Positions 46-47,854 of a stretch of 64,000 nucleotides of DNA are shown here, one piece after another. A program made the position numbers and the translations under genes. The notes below the pieces were generated by a model. That model saw only the letters and a list, made by a program, of their open reading frames with translations, did no database searches and was not told the DNA's origin. The stretch comes from a virus: the IMG/VR virus record IMGVR_UViG_3300033066_000693, positions 64,001 through 128,000 of that record; one strand, given 5' to 3'. How positions within the stretch are numbered: the stretch's first letter is position 1; each line of letters opens with the position of its first letter.

Positions 46-1596
46 TCATGCCAAGATTGTATCGGCTTGCTCTTGAGCTTTCTGTCTAAAGTTATGAGAA
101 ACAGATATTCCCTTGATACATCTTATCTTGTATCCTAATCCTAATACCTCGTCTGACAGATTAGCCATGTTGTTGATAGGATCTTCAGAACTCAATACAA
201 GTTCCAATGCGCTATGAGGGAAAACATACATGCCGCCATACAAAGAACCTACTTCTGGCATATCAAGAATGTCGTCTGGTCTTGTTCGTAGGTCTGGGGC
301 TACTTGATAGTCCGTTCGAATAGCTCCATATGAAATGTCATTTTTCTTGTCCGCGAAATCCGTGCTTGCTGTACAAAAAACAGAGTCTTCATGGTTCATG
401 TATGCGGCTATGGATTTTTCAATGTAAAGCTTAGGAACCTTTACGTGCCCGTCTATCACAACGATAAGCTTGCCGCTTGACCGCTTGAAGGCGATTCCAA
501 GGGCTTCCATGTATGACTTGCCGCCGGGAACTATCCGAACTCCGTCGATTCTTGACAGCAGCTTCTTGTCATTCTCGCTCAAACAAAACTCTGACACGAT
601 AATCTCGTCAGGTCGAACGTTGCGCGGAATGATAGCTCTCAAAACTGCGTCATAGACTGTCACGGCTTTGTCGTCTGGGATAACGATAACTGTTATCTTA
701 GGAATCTCAACTTTCTTTGGGATTACTTCTTGAGCTTTAGCTGCAATCTCTGGATAACTTGTCAAAACTCTTCTAAGCAAACGACCATGCAAATCAGAAG
801 ATGATTGTTTCTCACATGACGCATGAGCATAGTTCATTGCTCGTACTCGTTGTACGTTTGTCAAGAATCTGGGGTTTAGACCTTCCTCTTTGCATATCGC
901 ATAAGGAAGATACTCGTCAAGCGTATACTTTGGAACATAACCGTTTATAACGGAATCAGGAAACTTCTCCCTAGCTGCTTTCTGTATCAAAAATAGATCA
1001 TGTTCGCTATTGATATTGGCTACATCAAGTATGGTTTGCGCATACTTACGGAAAAACTCAAGATTCGAGCCTCCAACAATGCTTGTTCTAAACACCTTTA
1101 TCTTGCTTGATGTAAGATGCTTATTCCAGCATTCTGGCAGGCCTTTGATGTTTCCAAATAGGTCAGGACGATGGAATATGGCTCTACTTGAAACTATCTT
1201 TTCTGGCAACAAATCAAACATCATCATAGACTCAAAGAGTATATCAGCTTTTGCCAACTCTTCTGGAATAGGATCGAATAGATAGGCGTCATAATCAACA
1301 TGCAAGAACGGTTCTGTCTGCATGCTTATCGCATAAGCTCGTCCTTGAGTAGTTAAGCGAGGATTAGTAGTTGATAGATCGTCCAACCCTGTATCTATGG
1401 AAGCGAAGTCTAAGCCTAGCGTATCAACAAGGAACTTAGCTCCTCTGGTATCTGTATAGAGGTGCGGTTTGCCATAAAGCTTAGTAACAGAAGCTACCGA
1501 CAAGAGCCATGATATATTCCACGACGCTTCATTGAACCAACGATTATGGATATTCTGAACATATGGTTCAGACCAAAATGACATAATAGGCTTCAT
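46..1596 (-). CDS. hypothetical protein, 516 aa; C-terminal half has a weak GT-A-like pattern (ITVIVIPDD...IVVIDGH)
   Basis: Long minus-strand ORF with an ATG start. The sequence AGGAATAACTG lies just upstream. It tiles tightly with the downstream gene. I recognise no confident domain. Confidence 0.4.
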   Translation of the reverse strand: MKPIMSFWSEPYVQNIHNRWFNEASWNISWLLSVASVTKLYGKPHLYTDTRGAKFLVDTLGLDFASIDTGLDDLSTTNPRLTTQGRAYAISMQTEPFLHVDYDAYLFDPIPEELAKADILFESMMMFDLLPEKIVSSRAIFHRPDLFGNIKGLPECWNKHLTSSKIKVFRTSIVGGSNLEFFRKYAQTILDVANINSEHDLFLIQKAAREKFPDSVINGYVPKYTLDEYLPYAICKEEGLNPRFLTNVQRVRAMNYAHASCEKQSSSDLHGRLLRRVLTSYPEIAAKAQEVIPKKVEIPKITVIVIPDDKAVTVYDAVLRAIIPRNVRPDEIIVSEFCLSENDKKLLSRIDGVRIVPGGKSYMEALGIAFKRSSGKLIVVIDGHVKVPKLYIEKSIAAYMNHEDSVFCTASTDFADKKNDISYGAIRTDYQVAPDLRTRPDDILDMPEVGSLYGGMYVFPHSALELVLSSEDPINNMANLSDEVLGLGYKIRCIKGISVSHNFRQKAQEQADTILA

Positions 1597-1605
1597 CAGT
1601 TATTC

Positions 1606-2982
1606 CTAAAGAGAACCAGTTCCTCCAAGTCCCTCAAATCCTCCTCCGGGGAAATGCATTGGATTTCCAATCGAAGTATCAAACGTTTTTGTATCAGTAA
1701 AAGTTCTTGTGGTGCTATTGCTATTGTGTACCAAAAACTCGTCTGCCAAGAACGTATTTACAGAACTGACTCCCAAGTTTGCAGTCTGTATTCTTTCGTC
1801 TACTCGTACAATGCTCTGAATAGGAATCTCTCCGCTAAGAGTCATTGCTATATATCCAACGATAAGATTTTCTGCTCGAACAAACTTCCATTCATCTTCA
1901 TCTGTCTTAACTAAGAATGGATGTTCAAAAGTAGCCTTAGTAGTACCATTGATCAAGTAGTAATATGGTTCTTCTCCCCTATGGACTTTATATACTTGTG
2001 CCGGGAAGAATGAAGAACCCTGTAGAGATAGCGCAGACCATTTCAAATAGGTCTTCTCTTCGTCTTCAGGAGGAAGGTCTGGTATGATTAGACCTACAAC
2101 GAGGTCGTCAACTGCGACTTCTTCGATAGGTTTACTTTTCCCGCTCGCCATTGTAACCATAGTTCCAAAAGCGAAACATCCGCCCGGGGGTGTAGGTGGG
2201 GGATTAGAAGGAGGTGGAGGCGGCGGAGGCGGTAGAGAAATGGGCGGCGGTGGGGGCGGTGGGGGCGGCGGGGGAGGCGGCGGGGGCGGCGGTGGCGGCG
2301 GTGGCGGCGGTGGCGGCGGTGGCGGTGGCGGCGGCGGGGGCGGCGGCGGGGGCGGCGGCGGCGGCGGCGGCGGTGCGCTTGGGGAAGGGGAAGGAGATGG
2401 CGAAGGAGACGAACTAGCAGAAGGGCTAGCCGAGGCCGGAGTACAATCTGTATCTAACTCATAACGATACGCCATCTTTGCATGAAGAACTGATAGGACA
2501 TTCAATGCATAAATAAGCTCATTGACCCTAGTACCAATAGCAATAGCAAAATCAACTACGTTATCAATACTTGCCGGGTCTGGCGACGGCGTAAAATCTA
2601 AACCATTAGGAACAACATTGCCTACCCCAACGATAGGAAGTCCATCATCAAAATGAAAGAATCCTAGATATACGTCGCAGTTAGGAAGCTTACCAAACTC
2701 CTCTAGAAGAGAACCTTCGGTAAGCTCTTTAATGGCGTCTTGAAAACGATCTATAGAATCAGATAGAGCAGACGGAGTTGTAGTATCGTATGATTCGATA
2801 TTGATGAATGCATTCTCTGGTATGTTGAAACCGATAGAAACGCCTGCTTGGCGCATTCTGATAGCTTCTGCTACCTGAGAGAAAATGGCATCAAAATCAG
2901 CAAACTGAAAAGTCTTCGGAGTATAACCCGAAAGCTTTTTGAAGCTGGTTACATATTGTGACAGTTCAAATGGGTCTGGCAT
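1606..2982 (-). CDS. Pro-rich protein: unknown N-terminal domain (~180 aa), SP repeats, a 44-residue polyproline tract, a 152-aa Hint/mini-intein domain (CFAFGTMV...TFEHPFLV...FLVHN|S) and a 38-aa Gly-rich C-terminal tail
   Basis: The translation shows Cys1-type block A (CFAFGTMVTMASGK), a block B TxxH motif (TFEHPF) and a terminal VHN followed by Ser. These are the hallmarks of a class-1 mini-intein/Hint domain. P44 is encoded by (CCG/CCC/CCA)n. Confidence 0.6.
   Translation of the reverse strand: MPDPFELSQYVTSFKKLSGYTPKTFQFADFDAIFSQVAEAIRMRQAGVSIGFNIPENAFINIESYDTTTPSALSDSIDRFQDAIKELTEGSLLEEFGKLPNCDVYLGFFHFDDGLPIVGVGNVVPNGLDFTPSPDPASIDNVVDFAIAIGTRVNELIYALNVLSVLHAKMAYRYELDTDCTPASASPSASSSPSPSPSPSPSAPPPPPPPPPPPPPPPPPPPPPPPPPPPPPPPPPPPPPPPPPPPPISLPPPPPPPPSNPPPTPPGGCFAFGTMVTMASGKSKPIEEVAVDDLVVGLIIPDLPPEDEEKTYLKWSALSLQGSSFFPAQVYKVHRGEEPYYYLINGTTKATFEHPFLVKTDEDEWKFVRAENLIVGYIAMTLSGEIPIQSIVRVDERIQTANLGVSSVNTFLADEFLVHNSNSTTRTFTDTKTFDTSIGNPMHFPGGGFEGLGGTGSL
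2242..2373. repeat. Imperfect (GGC/GGN)44 triplet tract on the plus strand, i.e. CCN44 on the coding strand; it encodes 44 consecutive prolines
   Basis: Directly visible as a ggcggcggtggcggcgg... run. Flanking Pro/Ser-Pro codons extend the G/C-rich region to about 2185-2400. Confidence 0.9.
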
Positions 2983-2999: not shown

Positions 3000-5900
3000 T
3001 TATTGGTTCCAACTCGTGTAAGATCCACGACCTTGCAGCGCTGCTCTAGCTGCAATGTAGAGAAGCTTCTCATTGTTCGTTGAGTTAACCCCAACAACCG
3101 TTATCTTGGCTTGAGAGTTCTGCGCAAGAATAGAATCAACAGAAACATTGAAGTTCTGTTGCCATTCTGCCGTCGTGCTTCCGCAATCGCTGCAAGCTCC
3201 GTCTGATAGAATAACAACATTCTTCAAGTTGGTAAAGTTCTGAGGGATATTGGACAACGAGGCGTACAAGTTTGCCGTAGTAGAAGAAGCTATTAGATTC
3301 GTATTGACATAGTTGATAACTTCCGTAGCGTCTGAAACAGTACGAAGTTCCTTGGTAAACTGTCCAGTTGTATTGTTGTACCAACCTATTGTAATCTTGT
3401 CGCCATATCGAACATAGGTTCGTAGCATGCTTGCAAATGCAGCCTTTATTCTATCCAACTTAGGACCAGCCATAGAAGAACTAATCTGAACAAGGAAGTA
3501 CCAAGGCGCATCTCCTGCAAGGAATGGGAATGGAGAAATCCTTGAATCCTCTCCGTTCAAGCTTGTTGTACAACCAATCGGAGATCCTGTCGTTAGCTGA
3601 GGACCGCTGACAAGAACAGGATTACCAGTTGATTGATCTACTATAAACTGTTGTCCAGAAGGACTTGCAGCATATAGGATGTTAGAGCCAGTACCACCAA
3701 GAGGGTCTTGAGCAAAGTTAATAGTGAACATACCAGCCAAACCGCCTTGAGTGCCTACAAGCGTTGGAACTCCGAAGTTCGTATCTGCTTCTATACGCAC
3801 AGAATACAACGAGTTATCAATAATGCACAACGAGTCAGGACCGCTCTGAATAAATGCAAATCCTCCAATGCTGTTTATGGTTATGCCGTTAGGAGCAGCA
3901 GCATTAGCGTCTTGAGTTAGAGAAACTGTCAAGTTGTTGGAATTGTAATCTAACTGGAAATAGAATGCTTGTGCCGACGCTCCAACCTTCTTGCGGCTAC
4001 AGAACATCATGACCTTACCAGTATACCAATTGTATTCAATACTCTTGCGAATTCCGTCATTAGAAGACAATGGGAATACGCCTCCAAAGCTTGTTACATA
4101 ATCTACATTATCAATGAACTCTACAATATCTCCTAGAATAGCAGGAGTGCTTGAGCCGCTGCCGGGGAAGACTCTTCGAATGCCGTCTGTCGTTATGGCA
4201 AGCATGGAGTTATCAGTAGGAACCCATGTTATATCAAAGATCTCAATACCCGGAGCAATGCTTGTGTCTATGGTTCCTTTGTTCGCCAACTGGCTTGTTG
4301 CCAATCCAAAATCATAAGATACCAAGCTATAGCGACTTGCTCCAAGAGACGGAGAATCTAACAAGTACCACAAACGGGTTGGAGGGCTTTCGCTAGAATC
4401 TGGCGTCGATAGACCGGGGCTAGGAGCGGCCAAATCAAACAAGCAGCAACCTATCTGCGTATATACAGGCAAAATCGGGTATTGGAAGACATTGCTATTG
4501 AGACTTTCTGTTATGATAGGTGTATATGCGCCCGGATCAAGTCTTGTAGGAGCGATAGCAGAACAACTATCGTCAAACGGATCATATGCAGCCGTTTTAT
4601 AGAATCGGAAAGTACGACGGTTGTTCAAGTTTATAACGTCTTGATACGTATTGATATTGATGAGAGAAGAAGATAGGTTTGCCTTTGTAGGTCTGAAGAC
4701 AAAGTATCCGCCGGATTGAGTCTCGTCAAATGCTGGAACTGGAATGCTTACTGGAACATCGCAAACAACTGAGTTATCTGCATATGCGTATGTTATACTG
4801 CTGTTATTAGAAGCAGGAGCAGAAGATATTCCTGTATGGAACTCGTCTAGAATGGCATTGGTACTTCTATTGAGGATTTCCAAGTTAGCGTGCCACCATT
4901 TTCTGCGTATCTGCGATGCTCCCTCTTGAGGAGGAGGGGCGTCGTTGTATCCCCATGAGAATACCGCTCCATTGACGGCTACAGCACAATATGTTAGAGT
5001 TTCGTCTCCAACCGGCACTTCTCCTACATCATACTTATTGATTGTATTTGAAAGCTTCCAGCGAATGTAAATATCAAAACCGTCATTGTTCATTGCGGTA
5101 ATTTGAGCCTCATTCAGCGAAGTAATATCTAGAGCAATGGCTCTATCTCTTTCTCCTGAACGATATCTTTCAGCAAGTGTGGCAGACGAACTTGGAGGAA
5201 TCCAGTTGAAAGAGCCTATCTTGAAGTCTCGACAACTATAGTTATCATGATCAGACAGTCTGTAAAGAACTTCTCCGCTAGTGGCATTCTTGATGATTAC
5301 TTGATCAACAGAAACATAACCGCCAAAGACAAGCGTGCCATTTAGTTCTGCTGAATCTAGACATTCCACTCGACCTCTCCAAAGAACCCTGATTTCTTTG
5401 TTTCTTTGGTTGATAATAGAACCGATCTGTCCGTCTGCAAAATGGTACTTCAAGAACTCCGTAGTTCCCATAGTATCATTTGGAGAAGAACCCGGCGGAG
5501 CAGTAAGCATAGCGCTACAATCGCCAACTCCGCTTGTTGCAATCGTTGTATTAACAAGCAGCGCGTTGCTAGGAGAAGTCCATCCAACTTCTACGCCGCT
5601 TACAACTGGAACTCCTACAATAGATGCAGAAACAGCAGATACGCTATTTGCTGTTAATGGTATGGAGAAAAGACCCTTACGAGCAGGAGTATAGTAGATG
5701 TCAAGTTCAAACGAGTCAGTATATATAGTGTAAGGAACAGTAGAAGTAGGATATGCTGCAAATCTGAAACTTATACCTGTAAAGGTTGAAAAGGTATTGC
5801 AAAAAGTTCCTATATGCCGTCTATTACTACTTCCATAGTTCGCTGGATTAGAGCTATAGTAGAATGGAGAAAAATCAGTTCTGCCCGGAGGGGTGAATGA

Positions 5901-6386
5901 ACCTCCATAGTTTCCACCAGAAAAATCGTTATTTCCACCAGAAAACAGTGTAATGTAATCAGGACCACTGTGAGTAAAGCGACGGTCTAAAGCAAGCTGT
6001 TCATTACTAAAATCCGTAGGCACAGATCGGTCAGGCCATATGGATGTAGAAGGGTCATATCGCTCAAAACTTCCTATTCGTTGATTGGCGTCTCTAAAAA
6101 GAGCAACTTCATACGAACCCGTCCTAATATTAAGAGGATCAGCAATCTTATTTCCAATAAAGCGATATTTGAAACCGTCAATAACAGCATCATTTAGGCT
6201 AGAAGGGATGCTAAACTTCATTAGGCATGAGTCAGACCAATCATTTAGACCGTCTCTGAAATATACCGTAGCAGAACAGTATTGTCCGTTGGCGGTAAGC
6301 AAGTTTTGAGGATTATCCAATACAAAATCGTCAGGGGTTAGCCTGATTATAGAGCTTGGACGTAGATTGGCTAACACTAAACTCAT
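3000..6386 (-). CDS. Large Ser/Thr/Asn/Gly-rich putative virion structural protein (1128 aa) with a C-terminal vWA-like domain (FLVQISSSM ... ILSDGACSD ... ITVVGVN)
   Basis: Size and composition are typical of phage fiber/baseplate/adhesin proteins. The last ~170 aa show the beta-strand and MIDAS-like pattern of von Willebrand A domains, with Q replacing the first Asp. Confidence 0.45.
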   Translation of the reverse strand: MSLVLANLRPSSIIRLTPDDFVLDNPQNLLTANGQYCSATVYFRDGLNDWSDSCLMKFSIPSSLNDAVIDGFKYRFIGNKIADPLNIRTGSYEVALFRDANQRIGSFERYDPSTSIWPDRSVPTDFSNEQLALDRRFTHSGPDYITLFSGGNNDFSGGNYGGSFTPPGRTDFSPFYYSSNPANYGSSNRRHIGTFCNTFSTFTGISFRFAAYPTSTVPYTIYTDSFELDIYYTPARKGLFSIPLTANSVSAVSASIVGVPVVSGVEVGWTSPSNALLVNTTIATSGVGDCSAMLTAPPGSSPNDTMGTTEFLKYHFADGQIGSIINQRNKEIRVLWRGRVECLDSAELNGTLVFGGYVSVDQVIIKNATSGEVLYRLSDHDNYSCRDFKIGSFNWIPPSSSATLAERYRSGERDRAIALDITSLNEAQITAMNNDGFDIYIRWKLSNTINKYDVGEVPVGDETLTYCAVAVNGAVFSWGYNDAPPPQEGASQIRRKWWHANLEILNRSTNAILDEFHTGISSAPASNNSSITYAYADNSVVCDVPVSIPVPAFDETQSGGYFVFRPTKANLSSSLININTYQDVINLNNRRTFRFYKTAAYDPFDDSCSAIAPTRLDPGAYTPIITESLNSNVFQYPILPVYTQIGCCLFDLAAPSPGLSTPDSSESPPTRLWYLLDSPSLGASRYSLVSYDFGLATSQLANKGTIDTSIAPGIEIFDITWVPTDNSMLAITTDGIRRVFPGSGSSTPAILGDIVEFIDNVDYVTSFGGVFPLSSNDGIRKSIEYNWYTGKVMMFCSRKKVGASAQAFYFQLDYNSNNLTVSLTQDANAAAPNGITINSIGGFAFIQSGPDSLCIIDNSLYSVRIEADTNFGVPTLVGTQGGLAGMFTINFAQDPLGGTGSNILYAASPSGQQFIVDQSTGNPVLVSGPQLTTGSPIGCTTSLNGEDSRISPFPFLAGDAPWYFLVQISSSMAGPKLDRIKAAFASMLRTYVRYGDKITIGWYNNTTGQFTKELRTVSDATEVINYVNTNLIASSTTANLYASLSNIPQNFTNLKNVVILSDGACSDCGSTTAEWQQNFNVSVDSILAQNSQAKITVVGVNSTNNEKLLYIAARAALQGRGSYTSWNQ

Positions 6387-10578: not shown

Positions 10579-13335
10579 TTATACCTTTACGAACTTTGCA
10601 GGTAGTTCAGTCCCGATTTCAACCTTAAGCTTCTTATCTTTGTCGTATTGGAGCATAACATGCGTTCCGCTCTTTTCTACAACCTTGTAAGTTCTATCTT
10701 TCCCTGACTGGAAAGCGACTCCAACGCCTTTGCTGCGGTAGATATCTCCTACAGATACCATAGAAGCTTCGCCGGGCGACCTATAAATCATGGTCTTGAC
10801 GCCTTCCCATTGGGGTTCTGGACCTTCGCTAATGAGACGGCCTCCCGTACCAAAAGACGAACCAGAGCTAGCGTCTGCTTGCTTAGCCTTACCATACCAA
10901 TTATTCGCTTGCTTTCCTTGGGGATTGCCGTACATAGTTTGCACTTCTCCTCTAATAGACTCTACAAACTGAACAGCTTGAGCTTGATCAGCGATATTGC
11001 CTGCCAGTTGCTCGTCCATTAGCTTGTCCTGTATGTACTTGATAAAGTTAGGCTGTCCCTTTGGCGGCTTTAGAGAAAGACCCGGGAACATCTTCTGTAG
11101 CATCATTCCGTCTACAAGAGGCTTCATCTGTATTGGAACAGGACGATTCCTATATTCATTCATCTGACGAATATGCTCTTCCTTAAGGTCATAGTCAGCC
11201 TGATCGCCTTCTTCCGACTTAGCCATAGTATCAGCTTGAGCATGCATCATTACAAACTGCCAGACATCCTCTCTATTCGAGCCGGGTATCTGCGTGTCTC
11301 TCATGAACTTACCCATAGACTTGTTTGACCAAGAATCGGTATGCGGCCTCATATGTTGCTTTACAACCATCTGAACGAACTTTCTATCGTCTTCTCCGAT
11401 TCCAATTCGCTTCAATATAGCGTCAGCGATGTCCGCAGACTTATCTTCATGTCCAGCATAGCCAAACTCTCCCGGATCATTAGGCTTTTCCTTACCAATC
11501 TCGGGATGAGCCTTGCCGTAATCATGGAATACAGCAGCCATGAGCATAAGAATGCGGTCGTTCTTATCAACCTTCTTTTGCTTCATGATTCTATCGAGGT
11601 TCTCGACAACTCTAAGAGTGTGTTCAAGAAGATTGAACTTATGGTGCCTGTTCTTTTGGTCCATAGTTAGCGGATGAAGACCCTGAACTTCGGGAGCGTC
11701 AAAAACAGCCTTGTCCATGCCTGTTGCAAACAAGGCACGAATGGCTTCTGCTGGGCGTTCTGCTCCGAACATTTTCAAAATTTCTGGTCCTGCCCTTTCT
11801 GGCGAAACCTTCTTGCGATAGGCTTCATGAACAGCAGGATTGGACATCGCATCCATCGTCCCCTTCTCAATAGTGGCCTTTGGGTATCTGCTAAAGAAGC
11901 GGAATACTCTAAGCATTCTAAGAGGGTCGTCCATGAACGTCTTAGTAGGGTCTAGCGGAGTGCGAAGCGTCATTGTCTGAAGGTCTTGCATTCCTCCGAC
12001 ATAATCTTCAATCTGTTGATTATTGACGTTGTAGAACATAGAGTTGATGGTCAAATCTCTTCTTTGCGCGTCAACTTTGGGATCGTTAGAGAGCTTCATA
12101 GTAGGGATTCTACTATCTCCATAGCTTTCGTCTCGCAGATTGACAAAATCAATCTTTAGTCCTGCGATATCAAGAGCGGTAGTCTCAAGATGCTTTGATT
12201 TTTCTGCATTCTGCTTAACAACGTATGCAGAGTCCATATTGATAGGAGCGTTTGGATTTGACTGCTTGTATATTTCAGCCTTATCAACAAACTGCTGTCC
12301 TGTCATCTTGTCTAGAGCAATATCTATGTCGTCGCTTGGAGTACCTAGCAACTTATCTCGAACCCAGCCACCAGCAACTCGGAATGTTATACCTAGGTTG
12401 AGCTTGTTATTGATATCCAATAGCGTAGCAAAAATCTGCTGCTCCTGCGTAGTAAGCTCTAGCTTAGGAGCTTGCTGAGGTTGCTGCATTGGTTGCGGCT
12501 GCTGTGGTTGCGATTGTTGAGGCGGCACTTGGGCTGCTTTCTGATGACCTATTTCTCTAACGATATTTTCCATGAAGCCAGACCTAGCCCAAAACTCGGC
12601 GCTAAAGTTCTCTGGCTTTCGCTTGAAATCCGCCTTATCTGGGCGTCTATCCCAGCGTATAGCAAGGATATCTCGGAGAGCGCTGATAGGATCAACAGAT
12701 CTACACTTCTCAGTATGAATTCCCAATGTTGGAAGATTGACTTCAAACAAGCGAAGAGGCTTTGCAAACTTGTATTTATCTATGCCGGGGACATAGGCTG
12801 TCGTATAGACAGGACAAGTCGGACAGAACTCTTGCACAATGCTCTCAACTACGGCTACCGAGTGGTATTCTCCGCTCTCAACAACTATAGAGCTAAGGCA
12901 GTCAGAGATGTCAATCCAGTTAGTATCAAAGACTGCCATGCCTCCAAATATATCAACCTTACATCCATTCTTTTCCGCAAGCTGCTTGGGGCCAAGATTT
13001 ACAACAACCTGAAGCTTTTGGTCCTTGATGATCTTGCCTGCAACAGCATTGGAGAACATGATTACCTTAGACAGCGCATGTATTCTGTTTGACGACAGAA
13101 CAGAACGCAACTGAATGATATCCATAGCAAAGACGCACTTGTTATAGAAATCGCCCTTCTCGAAAACCGCTTGGAGCAAGTGGCGTGGAGAGCTTTGCAG
13201 AATCTTTTCTGAATCGCGCACAGAAAGAAGAGAACGCAAGGCATGGTCTGCCTGCTCTTCGGTTAAACGAGAACCTTGATTGGCTTGATAGACCAACATG
13301 GCGTCTTGTATCATTTTGTCGAAGTCAGCGGCCAT
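10579..13335 (-). CDS. cca: tRNA nucleotidyltransferase (CCA-adding enzyme)/poly(A) polymerase head domain plus HD domain, embedded in a 918-aa protein with an unknown ~290-aa N-terminal domain, a Q/P-rich linker and a ~200-aa C-terminal extension
   Basis: GGWVRDKLLG...DIDIA is the class II nucleotidyltransferase head motif, and FHDYGKAHPEIGKEK is an HD-domain motif. The linker QQSQPQQPQPMQQPQQ lies at about 12470-12530. Confidence 0.65.
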   Translation of the reverse strand: MAADFDKMIQDAMLVYQANQGSRLTEEQADHALRSLLSVRDSEKILQSSPRHLLQAVFEKGDFYNKCVFAMDIIQLRSVLSSNRIHALSKVIMFSNAVAGKIIKDQKLQVVVNLGPKQLAEKNGCKVDIFGGMAVFDTNWIDISDCLSSIVVESGEYHSVAVVESIVQEFCPTCPVYTTAYVPGIDKYKFAKPLRLFEVNLPTLGIHTEKCRSVDPISALRDILAIRWDRRPDKADFKRKPENFSAEFWARSGFMENIVREIGHQKAAQVPPQQSQPQQPQPMQQPQQAPKLELTTQEQQIFATLLDINNKLNLGITFRVAGGWVRDKLLGTPSDDIDIALDKMTGQQFVDKAEIYKQSNPNAPINMDSAYVVKQNAEKSKHLETTALDIAGLKIDFVNLRDESYGDSRIPTMKLSNDPKVDAQRRDLTINSMFYNVNNQQIEDYVGGMQDLQTMTLRTPLDPTKTFMDDPLRMLRVFRFFSRYPKATIEKGTMDAMSNPAVHEAYRKKVSPERAGPEILKMFGAERPAEAIRALFATGMDKAVFDAPEVQGLHPLTMDQKNRHHKFNLLEHTLRVVENLDRIMKQKKVDKNDRILMLMAAVFHDYGKAHPEIGKEKPNDPGEFGYAGHEDKSADIADAILKRIGIGEDDRKFVQMVVKQHMRPHTDSWSNKSMGKFMRDTQIPGSNREDVWQFVMMHAQADTMAKSEEGDQADYDLKEEHIRQMNEYRNRPVPIQMKPLVDGMMLQKMFPGLSLKPPKGQPNFIKYIQDKLMDEQLAGNIADQAQAVQFVESIRGEVQTMYGNPQGKQANNWYGKAKQADASSGSSFGTGGRLISEGPEPQWEGVKTMIYRSPGEASMVSVGDIYRSKGVGVAFQSGKDRTYKVVEKSGTHVMLQYDKDKKLKVEIGTELPAKFVKV

Positions 13336-15324: not shown

Positions 15325-15937
15325 TGAGTTGTCTCCTGAGATATTCTGCGATCAATAGAGCTTCGGCTTTTCCGTCGTCCTTTTTTAGCTCAAACTCTTC
15401 GCTCAAGTTAGGATACAACTTTCCGGCCAATTCTCTTGCATGGTCTTTGGCTAGTTTTTTAGCCTTGTCCATTTCTTGCTTATGCAATACCTTGGCTTCT
15501 TTATGCTTTTTCCTATCCGTAGCAGAGAGGCGATTGACTTCAACAGGACTTAGCTTAAGTATCTCGGGCTTTTCCAGCTTCTTCAAAAGCTGATCACCAT
15601 ATTCTTTTTTCCATGTCATAGGCGAAATAAGTAACAAGTTCAAACGCAATGCCCCAACAATGCCTTTAAGAATACCAAAGCCTTCGCCAAAATTGAACAT
15701 AGAAACATTTCCGTTTCCGGGCATAGGAGCAATTCGCTCGATCCCGACATATGTTCTGTCCTTAGGCAATCCTTCAAGAAGTTTAACTATACTCGCTATA
15801 TCATATTCAGTTTTGTTTTTGCCATTCTTCTTTGATTTAATCACGGGCATATAAAGCGTATCAATTACATTTCCATTTAGTATAGCAATAGCTCCTGAAT
15901 AACCCGGATCAATCCCAACAAATACATTCATAGTCAC
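15311..15937 (-). CDS. ruvC: RuvC-like Holliday junction resolvase
   Basis: The N-terminal VFVGIDPGYSGAIAIL matches the RuvC catalytic Asp motif (IILGIDPGSR...). Later acidic residues and the length (208 aa) are consistent. Confidence 0.6.
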   Translation of the reverse strand: MTMNVFVGIDPGYSGAIAILNGNVIDTLYMPVIKSKKNGKNKTEYDIASIVKLLEGLPKDRTYVGIERIAPMPGNGNVSMFNFGEGFGILKGIVGALRLNLLLISPMTWKKEYGDQLLKKLEKPEILKLSPVEVNRLSATDRKKHKEAKVLHKQEMDKAKKLAKDHARELAGKLYPNLSEEFELKKDDGKAEALLIAEYLRRQLNAAQ

Positions 15938-16650
15938 CTCATCTTGTAGATTTTTTCTTGTTCATCGAAAAACACAATTTTTCTATCTAATAGCTCTTTG
16001 AGTAGCTTACCTACACTGGCGTGTGCATTTATATGTTCCTTAACGGAACACAGACACAGGTTTTCAATCCTGTTGTCGGTTTTTACGCCATTAATGTGAT
16101 GAACGACTTCATCCTTTCTAAGAAATCTACCTAATTTCTCTTCCATTACTAGGCGGTGTTCATATACAAAATTGGCTCTTGCAAACGGATGTTCGGGGGC
16201 ATATCTCAATATATGTCCTGAACATTTTCTAACTTTAGTAAAACCCTTCCAGTTTACGTTCAACGGTCCAGATTGGAGTATATATCTGCATTTGTCAGAA
16301 CAGACATGATTCTTGGCTTTGTTCATTGATACAAAAGACGACTTCCCGCAATTACTACACACTATCTGCTTGATAGGTCTTCTTAGTTTTCTTCCTCCAT
16401 AGGGATAAAATATAAAATAGGTGTTACTTCTAGTGCTTTTGTAAACTCTGTCCCCATTGAAATAATGCTCTGTTTCAACAAAAGGGTGTGCAGCTCTATG
16501 AGAATCAGGCTTAGATCGAATAGAGACGCCATTTTTAATTAGCGTCTTGATAACAAAATGATGATCCTTCCCAATTTCTTTGCCTATACTATTGGCACTT
16601 CGGTTTTTGGCATATTCTTGTACTATAAAGTCGTCAGGATTTTTCATCAT
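15934..16650 (-). CDS. HNH homing-type endonuclease with a zinc-binding Cys cluster
   Basis: HHINGVKTDNRIENLCLCSVKEH is the HNH motif. CSNCGKS...CSDKC is a zinc ribbon. Confidence 0.65.
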   Translation of the reverse strand: MMKNPDDFIVQEYAKNRSANSIGKEIGKDHHFVIKTLIKNGVSIRSKPDSHRAAHPFVETEHYFNGDRVYKSTRSNTYFIFYPYGGRKLRRPIKQIVCSNCGKSSFVSMNKAKNHVCSDKCRYILQSGPLNVNWKGFTKVRKCSGHILRYAPEHPFARANFVYEHRLVMEEKLGRFLRKDEVVHHINGVKTDNRIENLCLCSVKEHINAHASVGKLLKELLDRKIVFFDEQEKIYKMR

Positions 16651-16727: not shown

Positions 16728-17663
16728 TTACAAGTTCAACGAGTTTATGGTTTTGTTCAACCCATTCTCGAAGGAAACCATTGGTTGATAACCTATTACT
16801 TCTTTCGCGAGGTCAATAGAAGCTCTCGTTCTCATGATATCTCCCTCTCGGAAAGGAGCTTGTTTGATATCAAACTTGAAGCGGCTCTTGAGCATATCAA
16901 GAATCTCATTGTTTGATATCTCAACGCCGCTAGCGATGTTCAAAGCTATACCATTGAGATTCTTCTTGCAAGTAGCCGCAAGGATGTTGGCATTTACAAT
17001 GTCGTCAACGAACACCATATCTCTGCTCTGTTCGCCTGTTCCGTCTTTTCGGAGCGGTTCGCCGTCTTTGATTGCGTTTAGCCAGCAGCTTACAGCAGTT
17101 GCGTATACTCCCTTGTTGTACTGATAAGGGCCATATGCATTGAAGTATCTTAGAGATACAGAATCTACATCAGAAGTCCTGCTATTAAGTTCTAGGAGTT
17201 GTTCGCAGATGTATTTCTGCAAACCATATGGAGATTCAGCTACTTTAGGAGAATCTTCGGTAACAGGAAGAACCTTGCTATTTCCATATACAGCAGCCGA
17301 AGACGCAAAAACTATTCGCCCTATATTGCGGCCTCTTCTAGCTTCGTCAAGCATTAGAACTGTTGTATCTTGAACATTATTACGGAACGATACATATGGC
17401 TTCTCTACAGAATAGAGAACGCTCGGCAGCGCCGCCTGATGGAAGACGACATCAAAATCATCAAACTTCGAAGTGATAACGTAGCGTCTAAGGTCTTGGA
17501 AATGAATCTTGACCGTGCCTGCTTTTCTCAGAATAAGCCTTCGCTTTTCATGATACTCGGTCTTGCCACTGTCAACAATGGTTACGTCCCAACCAAGCGA
17601 CATGCACTTGAGGGCGATGTTACATCCTATGAATCCTAGTCCGCCTGTTACGAGAACTTTCAT
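16728..17663 (-). CDS. NAD-dependent sugar epimerase/dehydratase (UDP-hexose 4-epimerase-like SDR)
   Basis: N-terminal Rossmann motif VLVTGGLGFIGCN. A YxxxK catalytic motif (YGLQKY). Length 311 aa. Confidence 0.65.
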   Translation of the reverse strand: MKVLVTGGLGFIGCNIALKCMSLGWDVTIVDSGKTEYHEKRRLILRKAGTVKIHFQDLRRYVITSKFDDFDVVFHQAALPSVLYSVEKPYVSFRNNVQDTTVLMLDEARRGRNIGRIVFASSAAVYGNSKVLPVTEDSPKVAESPYGLQKYICEQLLELNSRTSDVDSVSLRYFNAYGPYQYNKGVYATAVSCWLNAIKDGEPLRKDGTGEQSRDMVFVDDIVNANILAATCKKNLNGIALNIASGVEISNNEILDMLKSRFKFDIKQAPFREGDIMRTRASIDLAKEVIGYQPMVSFENGLNKTINSLNL

Positions 17664-18280: not shown

Positions 18281-19378
18281 CTACTCCTTTTTCATATACT
18301 TCAGCAGCTTAGACCTTGATTGCATGGTCCTAGGTAGAGTATCGGCATTTTCGATAGCTCTAAGCTTCTTTGCGAGCTTTTCAACCTCTTCTGAGGTCTT
18401 CATAGTTTCTGACTGAACAACAACAATCAGATCTTCTCTTTCACGAGAGCTTGAAAACAATCCCTTGCCCCTAAACCAGAACTTATCCCCGTGATTAGTT
18501 CCTGCCGGGATAACAAGAGATTCTGGCTTGCCGTCAATCATCGGGATATCTAGAGTAACGCCCATTATTAGTTCTGACGGACTAAGATACAAAGGCAATA
18601 CCAGATCAAAATTTGAGGTCATCTCGAAAAACTCATGCTTCTCTGGTACAATCCTGAGATAAACATGACCCTTACGACCCTTAGGATTGATATAGCGTCC
18701 TCTATTAACAAGACGCAATGCTGCTCCAAGATGTATTCCGGCAGGAATGTCTACTTCTATTTTCTCTTCTACGTCGCAAAGACCATTCTTGCATTTCTCG
18801 CAACGGTCTTCGTCATTAACAGTAACGCCAGACCCTTCGCACTTGTTACATATGGAAGCAATCTGAACAATACGTCTTCCGCCGAAGTCTTGGGTAGTTA
18901 CTACTTGGCCTTTACCCTTACACTTTGTGCAAGTTCCCTTTCGGGCATTTTTCTTTAGTCCTTCGCCATTGCAAGTTTTGCAGACTTCATTGGTATGAAG
19001 AGTAAGGTTTCTGGATTTTCCGCGAATTGTTTCTTCGAAAGAGCAGCGGATCTCAAGCTCAACGTCCTGCCCTTCCATTTGGGCTTGATGCTGAGTATTT
19101 CTATAGAACTCGTTGAAGACATCATTGACAGAAGTATGCCTTACTCTGGCGGTTGCTGGGTCGGCCCCGGTTCGCCTAAAAAAGTCATAGTTATGACGCT
19201 TGCTCTCATCTGAGAGTGTATCATAAGCTTCTTGTATTGTCTTGAATCTTGCTTCCGCTTCTTTATCGTTCGGATGAAGGTCCGGATGGCACTTCTTAGC
19301 TAGATCCCGGTACGCCTTCTTGATCTCGTCCGCCGTTGCCGATTCGGTAACGCCGAGAGACTCATAGTAGTTCGTCAT
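18281..19378 (-). CDS. dnaJ: DnaJ/Hsp40 co-chaperone (J domain plus four CxxCxGxG zinc-finger repeats plus C-terminal domain)
   Basis: YYESLGV...AYRDLAKKCHPDLHP carries the HPD motif. The zinc-finger repeats are CKTCNGEG, CTKCKGKG, CNKCEGSG and CEKCKNG. Confidence 0.8.
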   Translation of the reverse strand: MTNYYESLGVTESATADEIKKAYRDLAKKCHPDLHPNDKEAEARFKTIQEAYDTLSDESKRHNYDFFRRTGADPATARVRHTSVNDVFNEFYRNTQHQAQMEGQDVELEIRCSFEETIRGKSRNLTLHTNEVCKTCNGEGLKKNARKGTCTKCKGKGQVVTTQDFGGRRIVQIASICNKCEGSGVTVNDEDRCEKCKNGLCDVEEKIEVDIPAGIHLGAALRLVNRGRYINPKGRKGHVYLRIVPEKHEFFEMTSNFDLVLPLYLSPSELIMGVTLDIPMIDGKPESLVIPAGTNHGDKFWFRGKGLFSSSREREDLIVVVQSETMKTSEEVEKLAKKLRAIENADTLPRTMQSRSKLLKYMKKE

Positions 19379-33811: not shown

Positions 33812-34765
33812 TCAGCTATCACGTAAATCCCAATCGACCATGAGTTTGCACAAATCCTGCATAGAAGTGGAGGCTTTCCACCCGAGCTTCATTTCGGCCT
33901 TAGTGGAATCTCCTAGCAAATAGTTCACTTCGGACGGTCTGTAGTATTTTGGATCGATTACCACAAACTCTTCCCAATTAAGACCTACATAGCTAAACGC
34001 TTCCTTCAAGAAGTCTTTTACCGTATAGCTCTTGCCAGTTGCAATTACAAAATCGTCAGCCTTATCCTGCTGAAGCATAAGATACATCGCCTCTACGTAT
34101 TCCTTGGCATAACCCCAATCTCTTTTTGCGTCCAAGTTACCTAGCTTTAGATCCTTCTGAAGACCCTTCTTGATCCTAGCAACTGCTTTGGTAATCTTCT
34201 TTGTTACAAAGGTTTCGCCTCGTCTGGGACTTTCATGATTGAACAGAATCCCATTGCAAATGAACATGCCATAAGACTCTCGGTAGTTTCGGCATAGATA
34301 ATGAGCGCCTACTTTTCCGCAAGCATAGGGACTCTGCGGCAAGAAAGCGGTGTTCTCATTTTGAGGAGCAGGGGACGCCCCAAACATCTCGCTCGAAGAG
34401 GCATTATAGATCTTACAGCCCTTGATTCCAGCGCTTCTTACCGACTCAAGAACATTCAATGTTCCTAGAGTTGTAGACATTACTGTATCATGCGGTATCT
34501 CAAAACTTACCTTGACATGAGACATGGCTCCAAGGTTATAGACTTCATTAGGCCTAACCTCTTGAATGATTTTAGAAATGCTATTCTGATCCGTAAGATC
34601 TGCATAATGGAGATTGAGTCTATCAAAGATATGGTCAATTCGTCCTGTATTGAACGAGCTTGAACGTCGCACCGTGCCATGAACTTCATAGCCTTTAGAC
34701 AGAAGGAGTTCCGCTAGATATGAACCGTCTTGACCAGTGATGCCAGTAATCAATGCTTTGTACAT
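33812..34765 (-). CDS. gmd: GDP-mannose 4,6-dehydratase
   Basis: [58 protein letters not shown] and [18 protein letters not shown] are near-identical in pattern to bacterial Gmd. The likely start is the internal MYKALITG; the track ORF extends to 34795. Confidence 0.85.
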
Positions 34766-35670
34766 GCTAGCCCTCCTATGTTTTCTAAGAACCAATCATA
34801 GGTACTCTTGAGTCCAGCATCCAAATCCGTAAACGGCTCTAGCTCGAACTCAGAAGAAACCTTCTCTATACTAACGTCTTTTCTATGAATACCGTCTAGC
34901 CGTCCGTTGAAATACGTAGAACCAAAGAATCCTACAGTCCTCTGAACTGCTTGAGAGATTTCAGCGATACTATAGTTTCTAGGATTAGCAAAATTGAAAT
35001 CGCCATGCTTCCCCGTTTTCAAGAACTTAACAATCTGTTTTGTCAAATCGTCTACATAAGTAAGTTGTCTAAGAGCAAGACCAGATCCGTATAGCTCCAC
35101 GCCCTTGTCAGTATCTTTAGCGTTATGATATTTGAGCATGAGGGCTGGAATAACATGGCTCTTTTGCAAGTCAAACGTGTCATTAGGACCATACAGATTG
35201 CTTGGGTAGATTACCGTCCATTTGAATCCGTACTGTTGTCTCGCTGCGTCTATTTGCACTTGCATCATTCGTTTTGCGAATGCATAGCCATAGTTCGTCT
35301 GCTCTGGATATCCCTTATGCAAAACTTCTTCTTTGATAGGATAAGAGTCTACAACCGCAGGATATACGCAAGTGCTTGACATAGCAATGAGTTGTGGCAC
35401 TCTTAGCTGAGTACAAGCGTTGACAACGTTTGTATTGATTTTGAGGTTCTCAACAAAGTAATCATACAAGAAGTCTGAGTTATCTTTGATTCCTCCGACT
35501 CTTGCAGCCAAATGGATTACTACGTCAGGATTGCAGGTATTGAACACCATATTGGTGCTTTTTTCATCTCTAAGATCGCAGTCCGCTGAACTTAGATAAA
35601 TAGCTTCAGGAATAAGCTTCTTCAAAGATTTCCCAACCATTCCGCTTCCGCCTGTAACTAGAATTTTCAT
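34750..35670 (-). CDS. fcl: GDP-L-fucose synthase (GDP-4-keto-6-deoxymannose 3,5-epimerase/4-reductase)
   Basis: [35 protein letters not shown] and STYDWFLEN parallel E. coli Fcl ([30 protein letters not shown]). Confidence 0.75.
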
Positions 35671-35679
35671 GATTTCTCC

Positions 35680-36045: not shown

Positions 36046-36119
36046 TCATAACCTCCTGAAACAAATGATATTGTGACTTCGGAGGTAAATATAACCAGAA
36101 AGCGCATTTCACCAAAATG

Positions 36120-38430: not shown

Positions 38431-38439
38431 GTTTTACCC

Positions 38440-42348: not shown

Positions 42349-42359
42349 GAGAACCTTTC

Positions 42360-43265: not shown

Positions 43266-43277
43266 AGTTGTTTCGCT

Positions 43278-43952: not shown

Positions 43953-44004
43953 GCTTCGTCTCCTTCATTATGATATGGTATTCGACTCATTGATTTCATT
44001 CCCT

Positions 44005-47852: not shown

Positions 47853-47854
47853 AG

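What the first reader, a model, noticed from the sequence alone, without database searches (positions are those of the whole stretch)
1606..2982. Protein combining a 44-residue polyproline rod with a class-1 mini-intein
After an unknown ~180-aa domain and (SP)n repeats, the ORF encodes P44-ISL-P8-SN-PPP-T-PP. The next residue is a Cys that begins a textbook Hint/mini-intein: block A CFAFGTMVTMASGK, block B TFEHPF (TxxH), and a C-terminal FLVHN followed by Ser(+1). The intein is 152 aa, the size of a mini-intein without a homing endonuclease. A 38-aa Gly-rich C-extein follows (…GGGFEGLGGTGSL).

Inteins normally interrupt conserved enzymes such as polymerases, helicases and terminases. An intein or BIL-type autoprocessing domain placed directly after a polyproline II rod in a probable virion protein is unusual. 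It suggests either protein splicing that joins the rod to the Gly-rich tail, or Hedgehog/BIL-style autocatalytic cleavage. In the latter case the C-terminus would be covalently transferred, via a thioester, to another molecule, possibly a virion or host component.

The SP-repeat/polyproline segment also resembles extensin/mucin-like O-glycosylation substrates, which links it to the glycan island.
Basis: seen in the sequence. Interest (0 to 1): 0.8.

Follow-up and report, generated by a model that had tools for sequence, protein, structure and literature searches.

The report
Self-cutting domain ending a proline-rod protein
A large-phage protein really does carry a 44-proline rod followed by a self-cutting Hint domain, but this is an intein-like (BIL) end-module common in big viruses, not a true intein, and its relatives almost always keep one lysine just after it, hinting at an unusual side-chain protein ligation.

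Summary
Cys269 to Asn420 follow (152 aa), then a 38-aa tail.

The 152-aa segment is a confident Hint fold with Cys1, T-x-x-H and His-Asn intact. It is not a canonical intein. Its closest sequence and structure matches are bacterial-intein-like (BIL) domains, namely Tetrahymena BIL2 and C. thermocellum BIL.

- The exhaustive search gave 1083 relatives. In most of the 150 listed, the domain sits at the extreme C-terminus of unrelated fibre or adhesin-like proteins, or in tandem arrays.
- The +1 residue is not a conserved nucleophile. It is Asn in a 96%-identical variant.
- A fully assembled orthologue replaces P44 with (SPPTS)14, so the rod is a variable Pro-rich spacer.

New point: 87 of 90 short C-terminal tails contain lysine, against about 21 expected, and 82 contain exactly one. 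Gly-Gly before Cys1 is the consensus. The nearest solved relative, BIL2, forms Lys isopeptide bonds.

Best reading: a type-A-BIL-like self-excising module that may pass the rod's C-terminus to Lys432. The run length of 44 has no independent support. The glycosylation link is untested, although a DUF6734/GT2-like neighbour is syntenic in five relatives.

The parts
1606..2982 (-). Whole ORF, 458 aa (49.1 kDa precursor), stop codon at 1606-1608
   Evidence: The MPDPF start is conserved in P0002, P0003 and L008.
2428..2982 (-). N-terminal domain, residues 1-185, function unknown. It is a separable module, also found without a Hint domain.
   Evidence: No Pfam or PHROG hit. 69%-identical homologue P0003 has a different 70-aa C-terminus and no Hint. 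The same domain occurs in orthologue L008. The AF2 model failed, pLDDT 33.
2374..2427 (-). Ser-Pro repeat, residues 186-203 (SPSASSSPSPSPSPSPSA)
   Evidence: Confirmed up to window position 2381 by JGI contig L002 at 99.2% identity.
2242..2373 (-). 44 consecutive proline codons, residues 204-247. An imperfect (CCG)n array.
   Evidence: Run length is unverified elsewhere; assemblies break here.
2179..2241 (-). ISL-P8-SN-PPP-T-PP-GG, residues 248-268. Gly267-Gly268 form the predicted scissile N-junction.
   Evidence: The same junction appears in independent contigs L003 and L004. G-G consensus at -2/-1.
1723..2178 (-). Hint / type-A BIL-like autoprocessing domain, residues 269-420 (17.0 kDa)
2176..2178 (-). 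Cys269, predicted thioester-forming nucleophile (block A)
   Evidence: Cys in 181 of 181 aligned, ungapped domains
1915..1932 (-). Block B TFEHPF (Thr351, His354)
   Evidence: Thr in 174 of 189 and His in 179 of 189 domains
1723..1728 (-). His419-Asn420, predicted Asn-cyclisation site (C-terminal junction)
   Evidence: His in 186 of 189 and Asn in 185 of 189 domains
1609..1722 (-). 38-aa tail, residues 421-458 (3.9 kDa), predicted disordered. Ser421 is at +1. The Gly-rich end is weakly conserved in close relatives.
   Evidence: pLDDT about 50; alignment A3
1687..1689 (-). Lys432, the only lysine in the tail and the candidate acyl acceptor. It lies in a T-K-T motif shared with close relatives.
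46..1596 (-). Downstream neighbour: DUF6734 domain plus a weak GT2-like region. Conserved synteny partner, possible modifier of the Ser/Thr/Pro linker.
   Evidence: Pfam. A DUF6734 gene directly follows the Hint gene in L008, L010 and L011; in L003 the downstream gene aligns to this window gene at 92.8% DNA identity.
3000..6386 (-). Upstream neighbour, 1128 aa, ending in a weak vWA domain. Its C-terminus is also conserved upstream of orthologue L008.
   Evidence: No homologue in GenBank phages.

Best explanation
Residues 269-420 form a type-A bacterial-intein-like (BIL / PT-HINT-type) Hint domain. It acts as a C-terminal, single-turnover, self-excising module on a fibre- or spacer-like protein of a large phage. 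It is not a mobile intein.

Inferred chemistry:
1. The domain folds. Cys269 attacks the Gly268 carbonyl (N-to-S acyl shift), assisted by Thr351 and His354. The N-domain plus the roughly 83-residue Ser/Pro spacer (about 25 nm if fully polyproline-II) then hangs on a thioester.
2. Asn420, assisted by His419, cyclises and cuts off the 38-aa tail.
3. The thioester is resolved. My preferred acceptor is the epsilon-amine of the single tail lysine, Lys432, giving an isopeptide-linked rod-GG-(Lys432)tail product of about 32 kDa plus free 17-kDa Hint. This sub-step has a probability of about 0.35. The alternatives are hydrolysis (28-kDa rod), canonical transfer through Ser421, or transfer to a lysine on another protein.

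The proline tract is a hypervariable rigid spacer. It may be glycosylated on its Ser/Thr flanks by the adjacent DUF6734/GT2-like enzyme.

Shown here: sequence, fold, family distribution, residue conservation and synteny. Inferred: every chemical step, virion location and glycosylation.
For: **Fold and family**
- AF2 model: block-mean pLDDT 94-98 over nearly all of the Hint part.
- Foldseek top hits are Tetrahymena BIL2 (6Y75/6TMM) and C. thermocellum BIL (2LWY), TM 0.76-0.81, ahead of the mini-inteins (best E 1.3e-08, versus 9.9e-10 to 6.9e-09 for the BIL chains) and Hedgehog.
- The family profile hits BIL2 at E = 1.5e-20 and 2LWY at 4e-19. The best canonical intein scores 1.9e-11 and Hedgehog 0.04.
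- PT-HINT is the commonest Pfam hit, in 33 of 41 members.

**Catalytic residues** over 189 domains: Cys1 181/181, Thr 174, His 179, His 186, Asn 185.

**Not an intein**
- +1 residue: Lys 78, Ala 21, Ser 12.
- +1 is Asn in the 96%-identical variant, and T/V/E/T/I/A in the next closest relatives.
- The domain is terminal in most proteins, with tails of 1-16 aa.

**Lysine rule**
- 87 of 90 tails of 1-20 aa contain Lys, and 82 contain exactly one. The expectation is 20.6, and the maximum in 20,000 simulations was 36.
- Lys is 3.8-fold enriched while Arg is depleted.
- Longer Ser-rich tails keep one Lys in a KSSG motif, and 38 of 44 tandem junctions start with Lys.
- Gly-Gly is the consensus before Cys1.

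**Precedent**
- BIL2 forms a Lys epsilon-amine to C-terminus isopeptide and conjugates ubl4 to other proteins (PMC8616854).
- Type-A BILs have His-Asn, lack a +1 nucleophile, mostly cleave, and can ligate through a free amine (PMC4031507).

**Orthologue**: L008/L009 has the same architecture with (SPPTS)14 in place of P44, the same flanking genes and nearly the same length, 456 aa.

**Phage homologues**: these lie in tail-fibre clusters, and one carries collagen-like repeats.
Against: - No biochemical data exist for any member of this viral family.
- This protein does have Ser at +1. BILs become efficient splicers with a single such change (PMC7664689), so true splicing is possible here.
- Lys432 lies 12 residues from the junction in a tail the model leaves disordered, so no structural evidence places it at the active site.
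- The lysine rule was measured on the 150 best cluster representatives only.
- A related giant-virus subfamily has His-His instead of His-Asn and a CxxC tail, often without Lys.
- An isopeptide-linked tail gives no obvious benefit when the tail is a single Lys.
- Virion association rests only on annotations of distant homologues that share just the Hint domain.
- The neighbouring large proteins have no known phage homologues.
Confidence: 0.7

Rival explanations
1. It is a genuine class-1 mini-intein. Cys269 forms the thioester, Ser421 takes it by transesterification, Asn420 cyclises, and the rod becomes joined to the Gly-rich tail by a normal peptide bond (...TPPGG-SNSTT...).
For: All class-1 residues are present, including Ser at +1. 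BIL domains splice efficiently once a +1 nucleophile is present (PMC7664689). Close relatives share a tail with a weakly conserved Gly-rich end, so the tail may matter in the mature protein.
Against: The +1 residue is Asn in the 96%-identical variant, and T, V, E, T, I, A in the next relatives. Family-wide, Ser/Thr/Cys at +1 is a small minority. There is no intein-less allele with contiguous exteins: P0003 has the N-domain with an unrelated C-terminus. The domain has no homing endonuclease and sits at protein ends in most of the top 150 relatives.
Confidence: 0.12
2. It is a cleavage-only module. The thioester is hydrolysed, and the Hint domain plus tail is discarded. The domain would then be a removable C-terminal folding or assembly aid, functionally like the self-cleaving chaperone domains of some phage tail fibres. 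The mature protein ends at ...TPPGG.
For: Cleavage products dominate for type-A BILs (PMC4031507; PMC7664689). The domain is terminal with tiny tails in most relatives. It follows fibrous, collagen-like or Pro-rich segments that often need a C-terminal nucleation domain.
Against: It does not explain why His-Asn is nearly invariant, since C-terminal cutting of a 1-16-aa tail would be pointless. It also does not explain why almost every tail keeps exactly one lysine.
Confidence: 0.28
3. It is a trans-conjugation module. The Gly-Gly thioester is passed to a lysine, or another nucleophile, on a different molecule such as a virion protein, a host surface component or a glycan. The rod would be covalently anchored, in the manner of BUBL or Hedgehog.
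For: BIL2 conjugates its N-flank to other proteins. The Gly-Gly|Cys junction resembles the ubiquitin and Hedgehog cleavage sites. A vWA-domain protein and a glycosyltransferase-like protein are conserved neighbours.
Against: The conserved in-cis lysine and His-Asn argue for an intramolecular acceptor. No partner has been identified. Autoprocessing is usually fast after folding.
Confidence: 0.15
4. The polyproline-to-Hint fusion is an assembly or frame artefact of the GC-rich repeat.
For: One public contig is chimeric exactly at the start of the tract. Every other relative's contig ends inside the low-complexity linker. The opposite strand carries a poly-Gly shadow ORF.
Against: The N-domain and the Hint domain are in the same frame in the window. 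The linker-to-Hint junction is reproduced in two independent samples. A fully assembled orthologue, from two assemblies, has the same architecture in one ORF of near-identical length. Collapse of a CCG repeat changes length in whole codons.
Confidence: 0.04

Closest known systems
Type-A bacterial intein-like (BIL) domains, e.g. Clostridium thermocellum BIL (PDB 2LWY); overlaps Pfam PT-HINT PF07591
   Same: Hint fold. Cys1, block-B Thr/His and terminal His-Asn are present. There is no conserved +1 nucleophile. The domains sit in variable regions of non-conserved surface-type proteins, and tandem arrays exist. Profile E = 4e-19 and TM 0.81.
   Different: Here the domain is the last module of viral (jumbo-phage and related) proteins, with a very short tail. 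The near-obligatory single Lys in the tail and Gly-Gly at -2/-1 were not mentioned in the passages on BILs that I read. This protein itself scores below Pfam thresholds.
BIL2 of the Tetrahymena thermophila BUBL1 polyubiquitin-like locus (PDB 6Y75/6TMM)
   Same: It is the best sequence and structure match (E = 1.5e-20, TM 0.76-0.80). It is reported to resolve its thioester onto a lysine epsilon-amine, forming an isopeptide.
   Different: BIL2 sits between ubiquitin-like domains in a ciliate, and the acceptor Lys lies inside a folded domain. Here the flanks are a proline rod and a disordered peptide in a phage, and no activity has been shown.
Erwinia phage vB_EamM_Y3 gp110 and relatives (PHROG 38766, 'virion structural protein, contains intein domain')
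   Same: The architecture is the same: N-terminal region, extended rod (collagen-like G-X-Y repeats), C-terminal Hint, and a short Lys-containing tail (TDIVAKAEKL). The Hint domains share 32% identity (E = 3e-22). The gene lies in a tail-fibre cluster.
   Different: The N-terminal parts are unrelated. The rod is collagen-like rather than polyproline. No processing data were found in the searchable literature.
Canonical class-1 mini-inteins (e.g. Ssp/Npu DnaB, gp41-1)
   Same: Same fold, same size (152 aa, no endonuclease) and same catalytic residues. This protein even has Ser at +1.
   Different: The domain is not inserted in a conserved host protein. The +1 residue is not conserved. The domain is terminal. 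Profile similarity is 9 or more orders of magnitude weaker than to BILs.
Hedgehog C-terminal (Hog) autoprocessing domain
   Same: A C-terminal Hint domain that cuts at a Gly|Cys-Phe junction and transfers the N-terminal part from a thioester to an acceptor.
   Different: Hog has no terminal His-Asn and carries a sterol-recognition region. Sequence similarity is marginal, E = 0.04.
Self-cleaving C-terminal chaperone domains of phage tail fibres/spikes (Peptidase S74 type), from general knowledge
   Same: A possible functional analogy: a C-terminal module on a fibrous phage protein that removes itself after folding.
   Different: The fold and chemistry are unrelated (a Ser-Lys dyad protease rather than a Hint thioester). 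This is an analogy only and was not tested.

Membership tests
Hint superfamily | Hint (Hedgehog/intein) beta-fold | tested here: met
   AF2 pLDDT 86.8 overall, with block means of 94-98 over nearly all of the domain. Foldseek probability 1.00 to BILs, inteins and Hedgehog, TM up to 0.81.
Canonical class-1 intein | Cys/Ser at position 1, block-B T-x-x-H, terminal His-Asn | tested here: met
   Cys269, Thr351/His354, His419-Asn420
Canonical class-1 intein | Conserved Cys/Ser/Thr nucleophile at +1 | tested here: not met
   Ser421 is present here, but a 96%-identical variant has Asn. Close relatives have T, V, E, T, I, A. Family-wide counts are Lys 78, Ala 21, Ser 12 of 189.
Canonical class-1 intein | Inserted within a conserved host protein that also exists as an intein-free allele with contiguous exteins | tested here: not met
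   The domain is terminal or in tandem arrays on unrelated proteins. The Hint-less N-domain homologue P0003 has an unrelated C-terminus. The 'C-extein' is a disordered 38-aa peptide.
Canonical class-1 intein | Protein splicing demonstrated | not testable with these tools
   Needs expression and MS
Type-A BIL domain | Hint motifs with C-terminal His-Asn but no conserved +1 nucleophile | tested here: met
Type-A BIL domain | Located in variable regions of non-conserved (surface or secreted-type) proteins, sometimes in tandem | tested here: met
   N-terminal partners are diverse: collagen-like, MBG_2, PT/Gly/Pro linkers. Arrays of up to 7 copies occur.
Type-A BIL domain | Closer in sequence to known BILs than to inteins or Hog | tested here: met
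   Profile E = 1.5e-20 and 4e-19 to BIL2 and Cth BIL. Inteins score 1.9e-11 or weaker, and Hedgehog 0.04. I did not compare against the original Amitai et al. seed alignment, which is not available.
Type-A BIL domain | N- and C-terminal autocleavage activity | not testable with these tools
   Needs biochemistry
Pfam PT-HINT (pretoxin Hint) | Hint domain placed just upstream of a C-terminal toxin module | tested here: not met
   The sequence model matches 33 of 41 family members. This protein scores only 12.9 bits, and no toxin domain follows, only a 38-aa low-complexity tail.
Hedgehog Hog domain | Sterol-recognition region after Hint, and no terminal His-Asn | tested here: not met
   His-Asn is present, no SRR is present, and E = 0.04.
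Isopeptide-forming BIL (BUBL BIL2-like) | Thioester resolved by a lysine epsilon-amine | tested here: inconclusive
   Statistical support only: 87 of 90 tails carry Lys against 20.6 expected, plus the Gly-Gly consensus. The tail is disordered in the model. There is no chemistry.

The most novel reading that the evidence does not exclude
Large viruses (jumbo phages, and possibly giant viruses) carry a widespread, unrecognised class of C-terminal BIL domains. These would perform ATP-independent 'isopeptide splicing': a Gly-Gly thioester is handed to one dedicated lysine, either in the short tail or on another virion or host protein. That would be a ubiquitin-like conjugation chemistry built into fibre proteins. 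In this protein it would cap or anchor a roughly 25-nm, possibly glycosylated, polyproline rod.
Probability: 0.3. Interest if true: 0.85.

Novelty: new variant of a known kind. Interest (0 to 1): 0.6.

Why it matters
If the lysine rule reflects chemistry, this viral family would be a natural, enzyme-free system for making site-specific isopeptide bonds at the ends of rigid protein rods. It would be the second documented case after the ciliate BUBL locus, and a much larger one: 1083 cluster representatives at E <= 0.001.

That would bear on three areas:
- How phage fibres mature and attach.
- Intein and BIL evolution. A +1 lysine would stand in for the +1 Cys/Ser/Thr.
- Protein-ligation tools.

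There is also a practical warning. Assemblers break in the low-complexity linkers, and gene callers then start these proteins at an internal Met. The architecture is therefore systematically hidden in databases.

If the domain is only a cleavage module, the finding is a routine new member of the BIL family attached to an unusually long proline run.

Tried and rejected
- **Pfam and NCBIfam on the protein alone.** Only sub-threshold Hint hits appeared. A single-sequence PDB search found nothing relevant. A family profile was needed.
- **Word-indexed homologue search.** The Hint part returned one near-identical fragment. The N-domain returned two proteins. With profile A1 the search was dominated by two giant-virus-type subfamilies, so it could not serve as an independent replication of the lysine rule.
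- **The search for related loci.** The single protein found nothing in IMG/VR or in JGI metagenome contigs.
- **AF2 of the N-domain.** With only two sequences the model failed, pLDDT 33, so no fold search was attempted.
- **Neighbouring proteins.** tblastn of the 1128-aa and 1396-aa proteins against GenBank phages found no match, so virion context could not be established. megablast of 12 kb against phages found no match.
- **DUF6734 protein against PDB.** Nothing was found.
- **Literature.** Searches for Hint or BIL domains in phage tail fibres found no paper describing this family. The primary BIL papers (Dassa 2004, Chiarini 2021) are not held.
- **Prolyl hydroxylase.** I looked for one in the window to support an extensin-like model. 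None appeared among the 33 ORFs scanned.
- **Wobble variation in the proline codons.** I considered it as evidence of selection for Pro and rejected it as a discriminator. The same pattern preserves poly-Gly on the opposite strand. Strand assignment rests on the flanking domains instead.
Full report
**1. What is in the sequence**

The ORF lies on the minus strand at 1606..2982 and encodes 458 aa. Its layout by residue:

- 1-185: a domain with no Pfam or PHROG match.
- 186-203: Ser-Pro repeats.
- 204-247: 44 consecutive prolines (CCG 29, CCC 7, CCA 7, CCT 1). Tandem Repeats Finder sees this as an imperfect GGC/GGT array on the plus strand.
- 248-268: ISL-P8-SN-PPP-T-PP-GG.
- 269-420: Cys269 to Asn420, 152 aa. 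Block A is CFAFGTMVTMASGK, block B is TFEHPF (Thr351, His354), and the segment ends FLVHN.
- 421-458: Ser421 and a 38-aa Gly-rich tail with a single lysine, Lys432.

Gly-Gly separates the prolines from Cys269, and the gene is on the minus strand.

**2. Is the fusion real?**

- The N-domain and the Hint domain share one frame in the window.
- A JGI contig, 99.2% identical, follows the window up to the first proline codons and then switches to unrelated GC-rich DNA. It is a chimera.
- Two Logan contigs from other runs, 92-93% identical at the DNA level, start inside the proline tract. They read P17-LSL-P9-SNPPPTPPGG-CFAFG... in frame.
- A diverged orthologue, about 46% identical in the Hint part, was assembled completely in two JGI samples. 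It has the same MPDPF... N-domain, then (SPPTS)14 in place of P44, then SPA|CFALG... Hint, then HN|TFSPKTSS... and a 40-aa tail, in one 456-aa ORF. It lies between a vWA-protein C-terminus and a DUF6734 gene, as in the window.
- Other relatives have SP/PPPP-rich or Ser/Ala-rich linkers, and their contigs end inside them.

The architecture is therefore real, and the linker is a hypervariable low-complexity spacer. Only the exact count of 44 lacks independent support.

**3. What the 152-aa segment is**

- On its own the protein gives only sub-threshold Pfam Hint hits. It does give a clear PHROG 38766 hit, 'virion structural protein', E = 9e-18.
- tblastn finds the domain at the C-terminus of proteins in 51 records: 48 Erwinia, 2 Dickeya and one labelled only 'Phage'.
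- In phage Y3 the homologue gp110 is annotated 'contains intein domain'. It carries collagen-like repeats and sits among tail and tail-fibre genes.
- An exhaustive HMMER search returns 1083 cluster representatives at E <= 0.001.
- A profile of 41 of them hits Tetrahymena BIL2 at E = 1.5e-20 and the C. thermocellum BIL domain at 4e-19. The best canonical intein scores 1.9e-11 and Hedgehog 0.04.
- The AF2 model is confident over nearly all of the domain (block-mean pLDDT 94-98) and disordered over the tail.
- Foldseek ranks the same two BIL structures first, TM 0.76-0.81, then mini-inteins and Hedgehog.
- Among family members the commonest Pfam hit is PT-HINT, in 33 of 41.

**4. Why it is not a canonical intein**

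- Across 189 aligned domains the catalytic positions are nearly invariant: Cys1 181/181, Thr 174, His 179, His 186, Asn 185. The +1 position is Lys 78, Ala 21, Ser 12 and others.
- The 96%-identical variant has Asn at +1. The next relatives have T, V, E, T, I, A.
- In most proteins the domain is the last module, followed by 1-16 residues. Others have back-to-back arrays of up to seven copies.
- An N-domain homologue without a Hint domain (P0003) ends in an unrelated 70-aa segment, so no 'extein' is restored by excision.
- These are the published hallmarks of type-A BIL domains: His-Asn present, no +1 nucleophile, variable host proteins, cleavage dominant, and ligation possible through a free amine (PMC4031507; PMC7765530 and PMC7664689).

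**5.

- Of the 90 proteins with tails of 1-20 residues after His-Asn, 87 contain lysine and 82 contain exactly one. Composition predicts 20.6, and the maximum in 20,000 simulations was 36.
- Lys is enriched 3.8-fold while Arg is depleted.
- Six proteins end His-Asn-Lys-stop.
- Longer Ser-rich tails usually hold one Lys in a KSSG(S)SF motif.
- In tandem arrays, 38 of 44 junction linkers begin with Lys, typically HN|K(G)n|C.
- In this protein and its close relatives the lone Lys sits in a T-K-T or x-K-S motif, 5-19 residues after Asn.
- Gly-Gly is the consensus immediately before Cys1.

I therefore propose that the tail lysine is the acyl acceptor. This is an inference from conservation only.

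The rule does not cover everything. A subfamily has His-His instead of His-Asn and a CxxC tail, and many of its members lack Lys. Members of the related His-Asn/CxxC-tail group lie next to giant-virus capsid genes.

**6. Context**

- The window looks like part of a jumbo-phage-type genome. All large ORFs lie on one strand. It encodes topoisomerase I, clamp loader, UvsX-like recombinase, helicase, DnaJ and a CCA-adding enzyme.
- A real glycan-biosynthesis island lies at about 33-49 kb. It includes GDP-mannose dehydratase, an epimerase, a nucleotidyltransferase, GT2 enzymes, a TylF methyltransferase and a radical SAM enzyme. A further epimerase lies at 16.7-17.7 kb.
- The gene immediately downstream (46-1596) has a DUF6734 domain plus a weak GT2 region. 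A DUF6734 gene directly follows the Hint gene in L008, L010 and L011, and in L003 the downstream gene aligns to the window gene at 92.8% DNA identity. This gives modest support to a functional link, for example glycosylation of the Ser/Thr-rich linker. It is equally consistent with plain conserved gene order.
- No prolyl hydroxylase was seen among the ORFs scanned.
- The two large upstream proteins have no homologues in GenBank phages. A virion role for this protein is therefore inferred only from distant Hint-domain homologues.

**7. Mechanism and rivals**

| Reading | Probability | Main point |
|---|---|---|
| Self-excising type-A-BIL-like C-terminal module | about 0.7 | Thioester at Gly268-Cys269 and Asn420 cyclisation |
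| Resolution onto Lys432 (sub-step of the above) | about 0.35 | Would give a 32-kDa branched product |
| Cleavage only | 0.28 | Leaves the His-Asn and Lys conservation unexplained |
| Trans-conjugation | 0.15 | Thioester passed to another molecule |
| True splicing via Ser421 | 0.12 | Possible here, but not the conserved function |
| Assembly artefact | 0.04 | Contradicted by the orthologue and independent contigs |

The rival figures overlap with the resolution sub-step of the main reading and are not meant to sum to 1.

**8. Verdict**

- The 'mini-intein' label should be replaced by 'BIL-type C-terminal Hint domain'.
- Among the top 150 relatives the proline run is the longest example of a common linker theme.
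- The domain class is known, and a phage homologue is already annotated as intein-containing.
- The viral C-terminal architecture, with an almost obligatory single lysine and a Gly-Gly junction, appears undescribed in the literature I could search. It suggests a testable isopeptide-ligation chemistry.
- I rate this a new variant of a known kind, with interest 0.6.

Noticed in passing
window 33812-49584 (also 16728-17663): A real sugar-nucleotide and glycan island. It holds GDP-mannose 4,6-dehydratase (33812-34795), epimerases (34750-35670 and 16728-17663) and an NTP transferase (37588-38430). It also holds two GT2 genes (45610-47028), a TylF-type O-methyltransferase (43278-43952), another methyltransferase (41695-42348), a radical SAM enzyme (48598-49584) and a PRK-aldolase fusion (38440-39915). 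No prolyl hydroxylase was seen among the ORFs scanned.
   Followed up: partly
window 46-1596; L008:1819-2988; L010:617-2134; L011:799-2286; L003:692-1705: A DUF6734 gene directly follows the Hint-terminated gene in L008, L010 and L011. In the window it is fused to a weak GT2-like region, and in L003 the downstream gene aligns to the window gene at 92.8% DNA identity. DUF6734 has no known function and no PDB relative by sequence.
   Followed up: partly
L003, L004, L010, L011, L014 (contig starts); P0001, P0004, P0006, P0007, P0012, P0014: Public contigs of relatives nearly all end inside the low-complexity linker just upstream of Cys1. Gene callers then start the protein at an internal Met (M-A-[DS]-G), and sometimes call a false ORF on the opposite strand. 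The N-domain/linker/Hint architecture is therefore hidden in protein databases.
   Followed up: yes
L002:6603-7342 (JGI Ga0489987_000034): This 55.5-kb public contig is 99.2% identical to window 8982-2381. It then continues with about 740 nt of unrelated GC-rich DNA, starting exactly at the polyproline tract. This is a chimeric join that produced the truncated 234-aa database protein P0002.
   Followed up: yes
P0005, P0017, P0025, P0042, P0099, P0126 and others (family members, not in window): Some proteins carry up to seven head-to-tail Hint domains separated only by K(G)n linkers (HN|KGG|C). Long Gly-rich regions often follow. Of 44 junction linkers, 38 begin with Lys. Processing would release tiny Lys-Gly peptides or build isopeptide chains. 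The function is unknown.
   Followed up: partly
L015:10001-10561 and L016:10001-10666 (261-kb and 495-kb ENA contigs): Two Hint-family genes lie about 2 kb from NCLDV major-capsid genes on giant-virus-size contigs. P0171 (L016) ends LVHN + ASLCDECAAKNNKL; P0206 (L015) does not align through the C-terminal motif. A sister subfamily with terminal His-His instead of His-Asn and a C-x-x-C-S-G-Y tail, often without Lys, dominates the same search.
   Followed up: partly
L007:1542-5264 and downstream genes: Family member P0026 (1240 aa, MBG_2 adhesin-like domains) has 12 prolines directly before Cys1. Downstream genes are Asp/Arg-hydroxylase-like and sulfotransferase-like (the latter only a faint Pfam hit). 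This hints at post-translational modification of such linkers.
   Followed up: no
window 3000-6386 and L008:2-334: The upstream 1128-aa protein ends in a weak vWA domain. That C-terminus is conserved upstream of the orthologue. Nine of 41 Hint family members also match Pfam Vint, the Hint type that follows vWA domains in eukaryotes. The juxtaposition of vWA and Hint in adjacent genes may be coincidence.
   Followed up: no
window 2084-2464 (+): A 126-aa plus-strand ORF encoding a long poly-Gly run is the mirror image of the proline tract. It is a shadow ORF, not a gene.
   Followed up: yes
window 10579-13335, 15934-16650, 18281-19378: Three notable auxiliary genes: a 918-aa tRNA nucleotidyltransferase (CCA-adding) with an HD domain and a roughly 300-aa unmatched N-terminal extension, a free-standing HNH endonuclease, and a full-length DnaJ.
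   Followed up: no
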